From assembly GCF_000026545.1 (NCBI RefSeq), contig NC_011601.1: a stretch of DNA of 64,000 nt; one strand, given 5' to 3'. Numbering within the stretch: the stretch's first letter is position 1; each line of letters starts with the position of its first letter. Position numbers: made by a program. The stretch is from Escherichia coli O127:H6 str. E2348/69 (GTDB lineage Bacteria; Pseudomonadota; Gammaproteobacteria; Enterobacterales; Enterobacteriaceae). This document shows positions 3,001 to 9,000 of this stretch, piece after piece.

Positions 3001-6000
3001 CGAAGCAATATACCAGCCGCCCGGAGAACGCCACGAATACAGGATGAATGACGGTAGCGCGGTGGTTGAGTTCCCCGGATATCCGGGGGCTTCCCGGTGG
3101 CGGTTCTATGACAGTGTGGGACGTCGGATTATTAAAAGAACCGTGCACAACAATATGAAGGCTGCCGTAGAACGTCATAAGAGAAGGTTTAACTGCAAAT
3201 GAAAATTGAATTTTATGACCATGGGGTCACCGCAACTATCACTATTTCTTGTTGGTTCTGGGAGTTCCACCGTTACTTCAGAGTTGTAGATGCTGCGCTG
3301 TTTGTTGCACCGGGAGCGTTACATCACAGTGGAATCGGTATTGTTATGAACACTGTCATCAGCGGTAAAACGGTCCCGATGTTGCGGGCGTTTAAAGTGG
3401 CAAAACAGGAGGCTGGCAATGGTCATTGATAAAACGATAACGATAGATGTAGCCATGAATACAGGTCTGGCGCTTATCGGTTATGGCTATATCACTTTTA
3501 TGTCATTCAGGTGGTTGATTTCTTCGCTCTTTAAGCAGCGTGAAAAACATCGTTGTAAAGACAAGCGCGCGAAGGCGCTAAATGCGTTTAATGACGCTTT
3601 TGATATTGACCATATGCAACAGGGCGACCCCGCACGCGTAATTACCCGGGGAGATATTGTAATTCTTGTGTACCGGAATGAAAAAAATGAACAGGAGACA
3701 ACCAGTGAGTCAGCAAACCAGAATAAGCGATAAGAGTCTGACCAGACTGATTGCCGATGCGGACAAGGTGCTGGAGCGGAACTCCCCCGTTGCCGATGAG
3801 GAATGGTGGCAGGATTTCCGGGCTGCAATGCTGGAACTTCAGGAACGTCGTCGGGAGGTGTTGAAGTGAGTGAATTAAAGTGTCGAATTAATGGCAATCA
3901 GATAGAACCGTGTGCGGTACTGGCAAAAGCACTCGAATATGGAAATCCAGCCTTTAAGAGTAAAGGCATATTTATCCCGGAACGCGTGAATATAAACACC
4001 GGCGAGCCAGGCTTAGACATTGCTCAAATTCACTCCGGCCAATATGTCGGTCGTGGTGTTGCCATGTGTTTTTGCCCGTTCTGTGGTGAAAGTCTGAAAA
4101 CATGGAAAAAGGAGGCAACCAGTGAGCGAGATTAACTATCAGGCACTGCGTGAGGTGGCAGAGGCCGCGAAGGGGGATACGACGTGGCAGAACCTACAGG
4201 CTTTTCATGCTGCGGCTACGCCGGAGGTTGTGCAGGCGTTGCTGGATGAAAACGAAAGACTGTGTCGCGATCTGATAGCTCGTAATGGTGAGATTGAAGG
4301 GCTTCGGGAGTGGGCAGAAGAACTGGAGGCACGGGAGGTGGCTTTGCCAGTAGCGTCATGCATTGTTGAAGATGGATGCATGTGTGTTGATGGGTTCAGT
4401 GAGTATGTAGGTCACTCGCTACCTGATGGAATGCATGAGCTTTATGCTGCCCCGCCAGCGTCGGTAGTGCCGGAAGGACTAGTTAAAGCAGTGCGTTTCT
4501 ATGAACAGGTAAAGTGTGAGAATCCGCCAGTCGAAACCGGAGCATGGAAAGACGCGGTTGACTGGGTACTCAACGAGGCTTGCCAGGCTGTAAATATTGA
4601 CGCCAAAGGAGGTGCGTAATGCGTGTAGCGTTTATCGGTTTATTACCATACCCGACTCGTTTTTGGGCTTCTGCGCTAATTGCAAAGCCACATGCCCTGA
4701 TGGCTGACAGCATCATCCCGGCACAAAAGCGCCATACCGGTATTGCTGCTGCACGACGCGAAGCAAAGAAACGCAGGAGAGCAAAATGATGAAAAACCGT
4801 AAGGCAAGACTGCTGATAGCAAAGCCAGGGCAACTTATCCGTATCTCAAATCGACTTGTTGTTCACTATAGATATCTTGGTTTTAGGGAGTGGTCCTCTA
4901 TTCGTTTTTACGGTGTCTGGCGAAACAGAAGCGCGACACAAAACCGCTGGAAGAATCACACTAACGCAAAGTAATTAAATAATAACCAATAGCAGACCAA
5001 AAAGTATTTTTTGGTCTGCCAAAAGTGATGTTTTGGTCATTATGAAGATTGAACAAATCGGAATGGCAGCTTTCAGGCAACAGGCTGAAAGCGGTGGCGT
5101 GGATGAGTTCGTCGTGCAGCGGTTCGGTGGTGTGTATCATCTATTCGCTGTGAATCGCCGCGCCGGGGTGTCCTATTTTCTACAGGAACGTCGTGGCGAT
5201 TACAAGACATGGCTGTCTCTTGACCGTGCCGCTGCGTTCTTGTCAGGGATTGGCGTTTCACGTTTTACCGTGCGTTTTGAGGATAACAAACATGCTGAAA
5301 AAGATGATCGGGGCCATTAAAGCCGGTCAGGCGTATCTGGGGTGGGATGATGCCCTTTATCGCCAGACGCTGGCCCGCCTGACCGGTAAAACCAGCACCA
5401 CACGCTGCAATCTCGATGAACTGCGCATCATCCGGGAATACATGCACGAACAGGGATTCCCGCGCAAGGCACCCGCTGGTAAAGGTCGCCGCCCTCGTGT
5501 TGCAATGAGCAGAAAATCAGTATTATCCAAAATTGAAGCGTTGCTGGCTGATGCCGGTCGTTCCTGGGCGTATGCAGAAGGACTGGCATCTCACATGTAT
5601 AAGCAACATGTGATCGAATGGCTGACGGATGAACAGCTTTTTGGAGTGATGGTGGCGCTGGTTAAAGATTCAAGAAGGAGAAATCAATGATGAAAAAATG
5701 GTTGTTTTGTTTAGTAGGGGTTATTTTCTCTTGTTCTGTGCTGGCACAGACAGAGGAACAGGCGCAAAAGGAACTGAAACGTTATCAGGATATGAAGCCA
5801 TTGGCTGAACAGATGCTTCGGGAAAGTGGAAAACTTTATTACGCTATGCCAGAAGCTGCATCGCAGTATCAGCAGGGAAATATTGAAGAGTGGAAGAATA
5901 TCAAAAAAGGACTAAAACAACTGGATGAACAGGCCAGTAAACTGGGGGACGACCCGCTTGATCCTGTGTATGGTTCCTGCATAAAAATGAAAAACCAGCT

Positions 6001-9000
6001 ACAGGATTACTGGTCTAACGTTATCAGGGATGACAGGCAGTTTCTGGAGCGTTCAAGAAATCAGTTTAAAGAATATCGTATGGATTGTTTTGATTCGTTT
6101 GTTTTTGGTAAAGAGCAAATAGAATCAAGAAAAGGCCTGGTTATTCTAGACCTGACTAAATAAGACTTAGTTTAGCCCCTGCCATGCAGGGGCTTTTTTT
6201 GTGGTCTGTACAGGCGATCATGTATGGCTATAATAACAGTAAGTTACTACCGGAGACGCCATCATGCAGACCTTCAGTGAAACAGATCTTCGCGATGCGC
6301 AGGCACTGCTGCCCGATTCCGTGCAGCAACTGATTAGCGTGATTGGCTTCCCCGCCCTGACCCGGTTGATTCGTTCTTTTGGTGGCGTGACGTTAAGCGG
6401 TAAAACCGGCGTACACGCCGAACGCACCGGCGGTGTCCATGCCCTGTTACATGACGTGCTCACCGAAGACGAAATCAACAAACTGATCCGCTTTCTTGGC
6501 GGTGCTCCGTTTTACATTCCCCGTTGCGATCATGCGTTACGTGCCCTGCGTAACACCCGTTTTATGGCTGATTTACAGCAGCATGTAAAAGACGGATGCT
6601 CACACCGGCAGGCGCTGGCACTGCTCTGTCCCCGTTACGGCATTTCAGACCGGTACGCATGGCAGCTGATACACCGACGACAAAAACAGACTTCGCTGAA
6701 AAGCCCCACCCAGGTGGGGCTTTTTGATTAATGGGCCTCAGAAAAAAGGAGACACTTATGACCAACTATATGGCACTTGGCGAGTATACGGCCTACTCAG
6801 AGCAGGCCCGGGATGCTGCCGGACGTCGCTTTGCTTATATGAAAAATTTGGCCAGTCAGTTAAACCGAATGGCCGAACAACCGGATATGGTTGTTCAGGA
6901 AGAAGCGTTGCAGTGTGCCATTGCTGACATCATCGCCAGCGAAAACGAGATGCGCGCAGCGATGGAAAAGGCGAACGCCTCTGCTCCGCTTTGTAATAAA
7001 CCTCTTATTACGCCGGATTCTCTTTCCCGCTTCTGATTTATCACCCCGCCGCCGCGGGGTGCTGAACTCCCCCAGCAGTACCCACCACACCAGACCGTTT
7101 ACCCTGTCCACTCAGACCACAAGGCACCTTAAGGGATAGCGCCCTGCAAAAGGCTTTTGTGCCTTTGACAGGGTGTTATTTACGGGCCGTCAGTGGCTCA
7201 GATTTACAGGAGAAACTCATGTCTGAACCCTTATCAGGCGGCGGAGCTGTGGCAGTCACCATCGGTGGTGCCAGTGTGTTTGGCCTTCTCACCAATACCG
7301 ATTTCGGGGTCGTGGTGGGCGCGTTTGCCGGGGCGCTTTTTGTTGTCACTCAGCAGAAAGAAATCCCGGTATGGCGAATGGCTATTCACCTGCTCGTCGC
7401 GTTTGTGGTTGGCGTTCTGGGGGCTGGCGTGGCTGCGTCACTGATGCAGTGGCTGACCCACTACAACGACAAACCGCTTGATGCATTGTGTGCGGTCGGT
7501 GTCTCGGCGTTATCCATCAAGATACTGACCTTTCTTTATCAACAGGAAATTTCATCGCTGTTCGGCCTGTTTTCCAGACTGCGCGGCGGAGGGGGTGGAA
7601 ATGGAAAGTAGCCTTGCCGGTATCGTGAACGTCTGGCTGTGTCTCGCCATTGTGCTGGGGTTGTTTGTGTATCGCCGCCACGGTGCGGCGCATAAACCGA
7701 TGATTACCTGGCTGGCGTACTGGCTGATGCTCGGCTACATCATCATCCCGTTCCGCTGGCTGTCCGGTACATACACGCACTCCAGCTGGCTGGTTGTGGC
7801 GCTGAATCTGGTTTTCTGTGCGCTTATCGTGTGGGCGCACGGGAATTTGTCAAAAATCCTTTCGTTACTGAGGCATCCACATGAAATCAAAAGATGACAT
7901 TTTTGATGAAGTCCTGGGCAAAGAAGGCGGTTACGTCAATCACCCGGACGATAAGGGCGGTCCGACCAAATGGGGCATTACGGAAAAAGTCGCCCGCGCC
8001 CACGGATATCGTGGCGATATGCGCGATTTAACCCGCGAACAGGCGCTGGACATCCTTGAAGCCGATTACTGGTATGGCCCGCGATTTGACCAGATCGCCG
8101 CATTATCCCCTGATATTGCCGCAGAGCTGTGTGATACCGGTGTGAATATGGGGCCAACCGTGGCGTCCAGAATGCTTCAGCGCTGGCTGAATGTGTTCAA
8201 TCTGCGCGGCAGGCTGTACCCGGATATGGACGCAGACGGACGCATCGGGCCTCGTACCATCAGTGCATTGCGCGCCTTCCTGAATAATCGCGGTCAGGAC
8301 GGTGAACGGGTGATGCTGACGGCCCTGAACTGTACGCAGGGGGACCGCTATCTGGAACTGGCAGAGAAACGCGAGGCTAACGAATCGTTTGTTTATGGCT
8401 GGCTGAAGGAGCGCGTGGCGGTATGACGCGTCAGCACTGGACCCACAGAACGCCACGTAAAGCCGCGCGCTGTGTTCTGGCCCTGTTTCTGGTGATGTTG
8501 CTTCCGGTGGGATGCACAGACATTAACAGAGCGGGCCAGCTGTTTGACGCGGCGGCGCAGGTCTGCCGGATTATCGATGGTATCCGGCAGTGTTCACAGA
8601 ACTGATTTTTTGAAGGTCTGACACAGTGAGCATTATCAGATTTACAGAATACAGAGGTTCAGGAGGTGCTGGCGCTGTCATGGTGCTCGCTGAACGCATC
8701 ACCCATTTTTACCGTCAGTACGGTACACATGATGGCACGGTCATTGAACTGGATACCGGGAAAAACGTGTTTGTTCTTGAAAATCCCGACGAAGTTCAGC
8801 GCAGGATTGAACAGGCTCAGAAGGACACTTAATGGCGTGGTCACAGGATATCAGGGACAAAGTCCGTAACGGGTACATCTTTGACCAGCTTCCGCTGGAT
8901 ATCGTCGCCATGAAGTACGCCGTGCCGCACGATACCGCGCGGCGCTGGAAAACGCAGGCGATGAAGAACGGCGACGACTGGGACAAGCTGCGGGCCGCTC

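What the first reader, a model, noticed from the sequence alone, without database searches (positions are those of the whole stretch)
5687..6200. A/T-rich moron encoding a secreted 158-aa protein of unknown function between the GemA-like gene and the Mor/C-family gene
The ORF has a classic signal peptide, visibly lower G+C codon usage than its neighbours, and its own strong intrinsic terminator at 6174-6200. It sits where Mu carries mor. A horizontally acquired periplasmic protein in a prophage regulatory region is a candidate lysogenic-conversion, superinfection-exclusion or anti-defence factor. I could not place it in any family from sequence alone.
Basis: partly seen in the sequence, partly recalled or inferred. 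Interest (0 to 1): 0.6.

Follow-up and report, generated by a model that had tools for sequence, protein, structure and literature searches.

The report
Secreted cargo gene in Mu-like prophage
This is a real but optional gene of a Mu-like prophage of E. coli E2348/69 that makes a small exported four-helix-bundle protein of unknown function; it sits in a swap slot after gemA that held a different exported protein, or nothing, in the relatives examined, and probably acts on the cell envelope early in phage growth.

Summary
ORF 5687-6163 (158 aa) is real, has 40% G+C against 52-55% in its neighbours, carries a classic Sec signal peptide, and is under purifying selection (dN/dS 0.11-0.16).

The interpretation needs correcting.
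- The terminator at 6174-6201 is not the gene's own. Relatives with an empty slot keep the same hairpin and the same promoter-like site in front of the Mor-family gene.
- The gene-specific DNA starts 26 bp before the ATG, so it brings no promoter. It has an AAGGAG ribosome site and an ATGA overlap with the gemA stop. It therefore reads as the last gene of the early operon, not a self-contained moron.

In relatives the post-gemA slot holds one of three unrelated low-G+C genes, each with a signal peptide, or nothing. One swap junction lies inside the signal-peptide codons.

The mature protein models confidently (pLDDT 92) as a four-helix bundle with two invariant cysteines. It matches no Pfam, PHROG, NCBIfam, PADLOC or PDB family. 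Every relative whose context I read lies in a Mu-like prophage beside gemA/mor.

Function is untested. My best guess, at low confidence, is an early periplasmic exclusion or envelope-protection factor working like T4 Spackle.

The parts
5292..5690 (+). gemA (gp16-family) gene. Its last ~30 nt (5661-5690) differ from empty-slot relatives and belong to the cargo cassette.
   Evidence: phrog_286 E=5.5e-37. RefSeq annotates it as 'gp16 family protein'. PF06252 GemA is recorded for the orthologues. The junction is seen in alignment A5.
5661..6173 (+). Cargo cassette: 513 bp that replace 51 bp of the empty-slot relatives. It lies between the conserved ...GGTGGCGCTG of gemA and the terminator hairpin.
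   Evidence: Alignments of occupied against empty sites. G+C is about 0.40.
5675..5680 (+). Shine-Dalgarno AAGGAG, 6 nt upstream of the ATG. The ATG (5687-5689) overlaps the gemA stop TGA (5688-5690), which suggests translational coupling.
   Evidence: Read directly from the sequence.
5687..5746 (+). Signal peptide codons 1-20 (MMKKWLFCLVGVIFSCSVLA). The predicted SPase I cut follows VLA.
   Evidence: Hydropathy and the -3/-1 rule. The layout is conserved in the family. Two sources name homologues 'Secreted protein' and one 'exported hypothetical protein'.
5727..5727 (+). Approximate recombination breakpoint inside the signal-peptide h-region (codon 14). Upstream of it, a locus carrying an unrelated mature domain (L029, family C) has near-identical DNA (two differences in the 87 aligned columns).
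   Evidence: Alignment A7. In allele 2, dS is 0.19 in the signal-peptide part and 1.6-1.8 in the mature part.
5747..6163 (+). Mature 138-aa protein (16.4 kDa, pI 5.7) plus the stop codon. It is modelled as an up-down four-helix bundle. The invariant cysteines are C98 (5978-5980) and C134 (6086-6088).
   Evidence: AlphaFold2 model with pLDDT 91.9 and pTM 0.82. Invariant columns. Physical parameters.
6137..6154 (+). Conserved C-terminal tail L-x-[IV]-[IV]-x-[LVF] (residues 151-156). It is not packed on the bundle in the model and may be a partner-binding strand.
   Evidence: Residue-class conservation 0.64 for the tail (0.67-1.0 at the four best-conserved motif positions) across 9 diverse members. 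pLDDT is 59 for the last block.
6174..6201 (+). Intrinsic terminator (9-bp stem, 7 G-C pairs, T7). It is a backbone element, also present in empty-slot relatives, and is the inferred end of the early operon.
   Evidence: No comparably strong + strand terminator was found in 1-6173.
6207..6234 (+). Promoter-like site TGTACA-16-TATAAT in front of the Mor-family gene. It is conserved in all relatives whatever the cargo.
   Evidence: 10 of 12 matches. Both hexamers are invariant in alignment A6.
6264..6731 (+). Mor/C-family late transcriptional activator gene (downstream neighbour).
   Evidence: phrog_836 E=3.5e-42. RefSeq annotates it as 'Mor transcription activator family protein'.

Best explanation
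What it is (well supported). The window comes from E. coli E2348/69, and the gene lies in a Mu-like (transposable, myovirus-type) prophage inserted in eutC. ORF 5687-6163 is an optional cargo gene in a recombination slot directly after gemA and directly before the terminator that closes the early region. It has no promoter of its own and is translationally coupled to gemA. It should therefore be made together with the early genes, immediately after infection or on induction. It should not be made from the repressed prophage.

The product is a Sec-exported precursor. After cleavage behind VLA(20) it becomes a soluble 138-residue periplasmic four-helix bundle. The two invariant cysteines sit at the same height on the antiparallel helices 3 and 4, so a DsbA-made disulfide is expected (inferred).

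How it most likely works (inferred, low confidence). It acts by binding a partner in the periplasm, possibly through its conserved but unpacked C-terminal strand. This would protect the infected or induced cell's envelope against a second phage or a similar outside attack. That is an early superinfection-exclusion role, functionally analogous to T4 Spackle, which is an early, periplasmic, disulfide-bonded helical bundle that blocks the incoming tail lysozyme. It would also be analogous to P1 Sim.

The slot behaves like an arms-race locus. It holds three unrelated exported proteins or nothing, alleles are deeply diverged, and swaps occur inside the signal-peptide codons.
For: Identity and context:
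- 100% match to E2348/69, with Mu transposase, GemA, Mor, Mu portal, tail sheath and baseplate genes around it, and a truncated eutC at the prophage end.

Optional cargo:
- 7 of 30 related loci have an empty slot.
- The other occupied loci carry family A, B (phrog_5882) or C (phrog_19473). All have signal peptides and G+C of 0.38-0.45.
- Among 5,426 complete E. coli genomes, 57 carry this Mor module. Of these, 22 have family A, 13 have family B and 5 have the M8-type family C.

The terminator is backbone.

No own promoter, with SD and ATGA coupling. There is no strong upstream terminator.

Real gene with old alleles: dN/dS is 0.11-0.16. dS is 1.0-1.3 against 0.1-0.4 in the flanks.

Junction in the signal peptide.

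Export signal.

Fold: pLDDT 91.9 and pTM 0.82, four helices. Only generic four-helix-bundle matches were found.

Restricted to Mu-like prophages beside gemA/mor in E. coli, Salmonella, Yersinia and Xenorhabdus.

Analogy: T4 Spackle is described as an early, periplasmic, helical, disulfide-bonded exclusion protein (PMC7677548). Early-operon accessory genes with exclusion activity are known in Pseudomonas transposable phages (PMC9936078).
Against: - Early-operon expression is inferred from sequence only. A weak internal promoter inside gemA cannot be excluded.
- The scan for promoters covers sigma-70 consensus sites only.
- The disulfide and the periplasmic location are predictions.
- RM9088 keeps an intact family A allele in a prophage riddled with IS elements. 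That could hint at a benefit to the host independent of phage growth.
Confidence: 0.35

Rival explanations
1. Classical moron or lysogenic-conversion gene. It would be transcribed on its own from the repressed prophage and would give the lysogen a periplasmic function that benefits the host, such as virulence or stress tolerance.
For: The composition is foreign and the gene is present or absent among relatives. The host is an enteropathogenic strain. An intact allele is kept in the IS-riddled prophage of RM9088.
Against: The cargo-specific DNA starts 26 bp before the ATG and the start overlaps the gemA stop, so there is no room for an own promoter. No promoter-like site was found in 4983-6207. 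The terminator is backbone. The same allele (>=99.8% identity) occurs in strains from pig, dog, river and humans, so it is not tied to a pathotype.
Confidence: 0.13
2. Lysis-timing factor. A periplasmic regulator, made early, that restrains the phage's own holin, endolysin or spanin until the proper time (antiholin-like or endolysin-inhibitor-like).
For: It is periplasmic, and only two genes (the Mor-family gene and a small ORF) separate it from the lysis cassette, which has two holins and a GH108 endolysin. In Xenorhabdus the family A gene also lies shortly upstream of the lysis genes.
Against: Family A occurs with three different endolysin types: GH108, M15 peptidase and GH24 Phage_lysozyme. 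Closely related phages do without it or carry unrelated cargo while keeping the same holins. It lies in a different transcription unit from the lysis genes, separated from them by the terminator at 6174.
Confidence: 0.12
3. Immunity or inhibitor protein against an external weapon that acts in the periplasm, such as a type VI amidase or muramidase effector, a colicin or a lysozyme.
For: It is a small, exported, helical protein with conserved cysteines. It shows polymorphism and deep allelic divergence typical of immunity genes.
Against: No match in PADLOC, Pfam or NCBIfam. No cognate toxin gene lies nearby. It is found only in this phage slot and never beside effector genes. Early-lytic expression would give a lysogen no standing protection.
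Confidence: 0.1
4. Soluble decoy of a periplasmic four-helix-bundle sensor domain. It would bind a host sensor kinase or chemoreceptor, or that sensor's ligand, and so rewire envelope signalling during phage growth.
Confidence: 0.07

Closest known systems
T4 Spackle (gp61.3), the superinfection-exclusion protein
   Same: Both are phage genes expressed (here: inferred to be expressed) early. Both have a cleavable export signal, a small soluble periplasmic helical bundle and one disulfide (here: inferred) (PMC7677548).
   Different: The mature protein is 138 aa, against 75 aa for Spackle. No sequence or fold match was detected. This gene is in a temperate Mu-like phage, not a T-even phage. The target and the activity are unknown.
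Morons of lambdoid phages (for example HK97 gp15, lambda bor/lom)
   Same: It is a single extra gene inserted between genes that are adjacent in relatives, and it has a deviant base composition (definition quoted in PMC4378225).
   Different: It has no promoter or terminator of its own and is translationally coupled to gemA inside the early operon.
Accessory genes in regions of genomic plasticity of Pseudomonas Mu-like phages
   Same: These are single-ORF indels at fixed positions of the early (left) operon of transposable phages, and some have exclusion activity (PMC4378225, PMC9936078).
   Different: The hosts and protein families differ. Here every cargo seen is an exported protein, and one swap junction lies inside the signal peptide.
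Periplasmic four-helix-bundle ligand-binding domains of chemoreceptors and sensor kinases
   Different: It has no flanking transmembrane helices and no Pfam match, and identity is 2-10%. The resemblance is generic to four-helix bundles.
Mannheimia phage vB_MhM_3927AP2 gp15 (a relative of family B cargo)
   Same: An exported small protein sits directly after gemA in a Mu-like phage. This shows that the post-gemA slot is used across bacterial families.
   Different: It is unrelated in sequence to the protein studied here. In that phage the gene is flanked by two annotated terminators.

Membership tests
Moron (Juhala/Hendrix sense) | Extra gene between two genes that are adjacent in related phages | tested here: met
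   Seven relatives have gemA followed after 120 bp by the Mor-family gene.
Moron (Juhala/Hendrix sense) | Base composition different from the neighbours | tested here: met
   G+C is 0.403 against 0.52-0.55. The ORF is in the lowest 2% of windows.
Moron (Juhala/Hendrix sense) | Own promoter | tested here: not met
   Only 26 bp of cargo-specific DNA precede the ATG. There is an ATGA overlap with gemA. No promoter-like site lies in 4983-6207. The scan covers the sigma-70 consensus only.
Moron (Juhala/Hendrix sense) | Own terminator | tested here: not met
   The hairpin at 6174-6201 is also present in empty-slot loci and behind unrelated cargo.
Moron (Juhala/Hendrix sense) | Expressed from the repressed prophage | not testable with these tools
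   This needs RNA-seq or a reporter in the lysogen.
Sec (SPase I) exported protein | Basic n-region, hydrophobic h-region, small residues at -3/-1, no lipobox | tested here: met
   MMKK; h-region KD 2.72; V-L-A then Q; no [LVI][ASTVI][GAS]C. The layout is conserved in the family.
Sec (SPase I) exported protein | Prediction by SignalP, or experimental export | not testable with these tools
   No SignalP tool was available. Independent sources label two homologues 'Secreted protein' and one 'exported hypothetical protein'.
T4 Spackle-like exclusion protein | Sequence or fold homology to Spackle | tested here: not met
T4 Spackle-like exclusion protein | Binds and inhibits a tail-associated lysozyme; excludes superinfecting phage | not testable with these tools
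   This needs biochemistry and plating assays.
4HB_MCP / periplasmic four-helix-bundle sensor domain | Pfam profile match and flanking transmembrane helices | tested here: not met
   No Pfam hit for any of 12 members. No hydrophobic segment follows residue 25.
4HB_MCP / periplasmic four-helix-bundle sensor domain | Four-helix-bundle fold | tested here: met
Mu Mor/GemB (the gene Mu has at this position) | Mor family profile (PF08765 / phrog_836) | tested here: not met
   No Pfam or PHROG hit for the ORF. The Mor-family gene is the next one, at 6264-6731.
Known anti-phage defence proteins (PADLOC) | Match to any PADLOC model | tested here: not met
   0 families at E<=1.

The most novel reading that the evidence does not exclude
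Mu-like phages of enterobacteria keep a dedicated 'secretome slot' at the end of the early operon. In it, the ribosome site and the first ~13 signal-peptide codons would serve as a fixed homology arm, so that unrelated periplasmic effector domains can be swapped in and out as plug-in modules. The four-helix-bundle protein would be a new class of early periplasmic phage effector. It would use a conserved C-terminal strand to dock on an envelope machine or sensor, for example as a decoy of a four-helix-bundle sensor domain.
Probability: 0.12. Interest if true: 0.7.

Novelty: new member of a known kind. Interest (0 to 1): 0.42.

Why it matters
Periplasm-directed phage proteins are few and mostly known from virulent phages (T4 Sp and Imm, T5 Llp) or from lambdoid morons.

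This slot offers something more tractable. It is clean and naturally polymorphic, with three unrelated exported proteins or nothing on an otherwise 91-99% identical phage backbone. That amounts to a ready-made isogenic series for asking what transposable phages need to do in the periplasm early in infection.

The confident model of an orphan fold-family and the signal-peptide-level cassette swap make the question directly testable.

The practical lesson for annotation is that a terminator next to a low-G+C gene need not belong to that gene.

Tried and rejected
Searches of the protein that found nothing:
- Pfam on the protein, and on 12 family members individually: nothing below E=0.004.
- PHROGs, NCBIfam and PADLOC: no family.
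- PDB sequence search with the single protein and with a profile: only noise, with E>0.04.
- tblastn against 50,697 phage genomes at E<=1e-5 and at E<=5: no match.
- Foldseek against PDB: nothing below E=0.05.
- AFDB50: only family members are significant.
- Exhaustive HMMER search of 1.84 billion representatives: 11 hits. Nine are family members or fragments, one is a 304-aa repeat protein that I judged spurious, and the context of the rest was not all checked.

Other checks:
- Rfam on 4500-7500: only sub-threshold matches, all outside the ORF.
- Pfam and NCBIfam on the alternative cargo families B and C, looking for a functional hint: nothing except a weak Sel1 hit at E=0.06.
- Literature search for the protein accession: no paper.

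Ideas considered and rejected:
- Lipoprotein: there is no lipobox.
- Haem-binding cytochrome b562-like bundle: the E2348 protein has no histidine (read from the sequence).
- Endolysin-specific inhibitor: the family co-occurs with three endolysin types.

A comparison of whole prophages (E2348 against RM9088) to look for modules that co-vary with the cargo allele was started. I dropped it because two genomes are too few to be informative.

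
Full report
**Origin and setting.** The window matches the E. coli E2348/69 (O127:H6) chromosome at 100% identity. The region belongs to a Mu-like prophage. Upstream are the Mu transposase and an AAA ATPase. Then comes a long run of small early genes: DUF3164, ANR, DUF2786, DUF4752 and ead/Ea22-like. These are followed by a gp16/GemA-family gene, the ORF in question, a Mor-family gene, two holins, a GH108 endolysin, DUF1804, a DNA methyltransferase, TerL, a Mu-type portal, head genes, and sheath, tape-measure and baseplate genes. 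The prophage ends inside eutC, which RefSeq marks as truncated.

- The ORF 5687-6163 (158 aa) exists, and no ORF of 40 aa or more lies on the opposite strand.
- Its G+C is 0.403 (GC3 0.403). gemA has 0.521, the Mor-family gene 0.547, and other phage genes 0.50-0.56.
- It lies in the lowest 2% of all 477-bp windows of the 64 kb.
- The N-terminus MMKK-WLFCLVGVIFSCS-VLA|Q has the n/h/c layout of a Sec signal peptide, with small residues at -3 and -1. There is no lipobox and no later hydrophobic segment.
- The hairpin at 6174-6194 (9 bp, 7 G-C pairs) followed by T7 folds at -17.6 kcal/mol.
- Between alleles dN/dS is 0.11-0.16, so the ORF is a translated gene under purifying selection.

**The gene is cargo in a swap slot.** I collected 30 related loci from E. 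coli genomes, public assemblies and IMG/VR. In each I extracted what lies between the gemA and Mor-family genes.
- Seven loci have nothing there: the gap is 120 bp.
- The others carry one gene from one of three unrelated families.
  - Family A is this protein (158-159 aa).
  - Family B is 112 aa (phrog_5882).
  - Family C is 167-174 aa (phrog_19473).
- All three families begin with a signal peptide and have G+C of 0.38-0.45.
- Among 5,426 complete E. coli genomes, 57 carry this Mor module. Of these, 22 have family A (11 at >=99% nucleotide identity and 11 at about 76%), 13 have family B, and 5 have the M8-type family C.
- A 38%-identical relative of family B sits directly after gemA in the Mu-like Mannheimia phage vB_MhM_3927AP2, again with a signal-peptide-like N-terminus.

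**The terminator is not the gene's own.** Empty-slot loci have the same hairpin (AGCC[T/C]CTGCC-TTG-CAGGGGC + T-run) directly after the gemA stop. It is followed by the conserved TGTACA-16-TATAAT site and the Mor-family gene. The same hairpin follows unrelated cargo in strain M8 and in L029. A second hairpin allele (CCTCCGC...GCGGAGG) is shared by a family B locus and a family A locus. The terminator therefore belongs to the backbone.

It is also the first convincing + strand terminator met when reading from the left end of the window. Upstream there are only short stems inside coding sequence, at roughly chance frequency. I infer that it ends the early operon. In Mu, gemA is followed by gemB, also called mor (PMC4553209), and mor is the last gene of the left operon (PMC9936078). 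The cargo thus occupies the position of the last early gene.

**The gene brings no promoter.** Compared with the empty site, the cassette replaces 51 bp by 513 bp (5661-6173). Only 26 bp of it precede the ATG. These contain AAGGAG (5675-5680), and the ATG overlaps the gemA stop as ATGA. No promoter-like site was found between 4983 and 6207.

The gene therefore fails two defining features of a moron, namely its own promoter and its own terminator (definition in PMC4378225). It should be expressed with the early genes on infection or induction. This step is inferred from sequence, not shown.

**Swaps occur inside the signal peptide.** Locus L029 carries a family C mature domain. However, its DNA is nearly identical to E2348/69 from gemA through the thirteenth codon of the signal peptide, differing at two of the 87 aligned columns (MMKKWLFCLVGVI...). 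The two diverge at about 5727.

The same pattern appears within family A. For the 70%-identical allele, dS is 0.19 in the signal-peptide codons, as in the flanks, but 1.6-1.8 in the mature part. Overall dS for the gene is 1.0-1.3, against 0.1-0.4 for gemA and the Mor-family gene in the same pairs. The alleles are therefore old lineages moved by recombination, not products of recent fast change.

**The protein.**
- Family size: it is tiny. There are about 14 clusters at 90% identity among 5.8 billion proteins, and 11 hits among 1.84 billion representatives.
- Hosts: members come from E. coli, E. albertii, Salmonella, Yersinia enterocolitica and Xenorhabdus.
- Context: every member whose context I read lies in a Mu-like prophage beside gemA/mor. 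In Xenorhabdus it sits between two Mor-family genes.
- Absence from isolated phages: it has no match in 50,697 sequenced phage genomes.
- Absence from known families: it matches no Pfam, PHROG, NCBIfam or PADLOC family.
- Model: with an 18-sequence alignment of the mature part, AlphaFold2 gives pLDDT 91.9 and pTM 0.82. The model has four helices: 3-42, 47-66, 76-94 and 97-129.
- Invariant columns: across 21-100% identity these are K17, C78, W89 and C114 in mature numbering.
- Disulfide: C78 and C114 lie about 17.5 and 18.5 residues on either side of the helix 3/4 turn. They therefore face each other in the hairpin, and a disulfide is expected (inference).
- C-terminal tail: the tail L-x-[IV]-[IV]-x-[LVF] is conserved in the most distant members, yet it is not packed in the model. 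It may be a docking strand.

**What it probably does.** Nothing here shows function. The facts to be explained are as follows:
- a periplasmic location;
- inferred early expression;
- dispensability;
- replacement by other exported proteins at the same site;
- old, diverged alleles;
- restriction to one phage type.

The known category that fits best is an early superinfection-exclusion or envelope-protection protein. T4 Spackle is the clearest analogue. It is an early gene product with a cleaved export signal and a compact helical bundle with a disulfide, and it blocks the incoming tail lysozyme in the periplasm (PMC7677548). There is no homology to Spackle, so this is a statement about how the protein may work, not about family membership. 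I put about 0.35 on this reading.

The rivals are these:
- A host-benefit gene expressed in the lysogen. The missing promoter argues against it. The intact allele retained in the IS-riddled prophage of RM9088 argues weakly for it.
- A lysis-timing factor. Co-occurrence with GH108, M15 and GH24 endolysins argues against it, as does the separate transcription unit.
- Immunity to periplasm-acting toxins. There is no supporting context.
- A decoy of a four-helix-bundle sensor domain. The only support is a generic fold resemblance.

**Verdict.** The corrections are that the terminator is the phage's own and that the gene is the last cistron of the early operon rather than a self-contained moron. 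It is one of several interchangeable exported cargoes, with one swap junction inside the signal peptide. It is a new, orphan member of a known kind: a phage accessory gene for a periplasmic protein. Interest is moderate. The function is unknown, but the natural polymorphism makes it unusually easy to test.

Noticed in passing
window ~31,500-36,200: The Mu-like prophage ends inside eutC, which RefSeq annotates as missing its C-terminus. Farther on, eutA is split by an ISEc13 element. The ethanolamine-utilisation operon of E2348/69 is therefore interrupted twice.
   Followed up: partly
window 1700-2378, ORF 1955-2173 (-): A second low-G+C patch (minimum 0.39-0.415, depending on window size) lies in the early region. 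It contains a small reverse-strand gene (RefSeq WP_000564495.1, hypothetical). This looks like another cargo island, this time in the opposite orientation.
   Followed up: no
window 4993-5020: A perfect 12-bp stem hairpin, GCAGACCAAAAA-GTAT-TTTTTGGTCTGC, lies in a 250-bp non-coding gap (4790-5041) of the early region. No T-run follows it on the + strand. The scan flags it only as a minus-strand terminator-like site. Its role is unknown.
   Followed up: no
window 6207-6234: The promoter-like site TGTACA-16-TATAAT in front of the only Mor/C-family gene has both hexamers invariant in all relatives. With a perfect -10 box right after a strong terminator, it is unclear how this activator gene is kept silent in the lysogen.
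   Followed up: partly
L008 4535-6019 (Xenorhabdus nematophila contig): This relative has two Mor-family genes (36% and 54% identical to the one in the window), with the family A gene between them. The arrangement resembles the Mor/C pair of Mu.
   Followed up: partly
L034 (E. coli RM9088, NZ_CP042298.1 2053000-2090000): The related prophage is broken by at least five IS elements (IS66 family, IS21 and IS1). It has an M15 peptidase in place of the GH108 endolysin. It still keeps an intact 159-aa family A allele.
   Followed up: partly
window 61,100-62,900: A very A+T-rich stretch (G+C down to 0.245) lies between acrD and the ehaJ heptosyltransferase / autotransporter adhesin genes.
   Followed up: no
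window 8423-8605: A small ORF directly after the endolysin encodes a protein with a lipobox-like LLPVGC motif. It may be the outer-membrane spanin component of the lysis cassette.
   Followed up: no
protein P0010 and P0012 (E. coli): Two database entries are frameshifted or truncated versions of family A (106 aa and 66 aa). P0010 reads through into the terminator region. These are decayed copies or sequencing errors.
   Followed up: no
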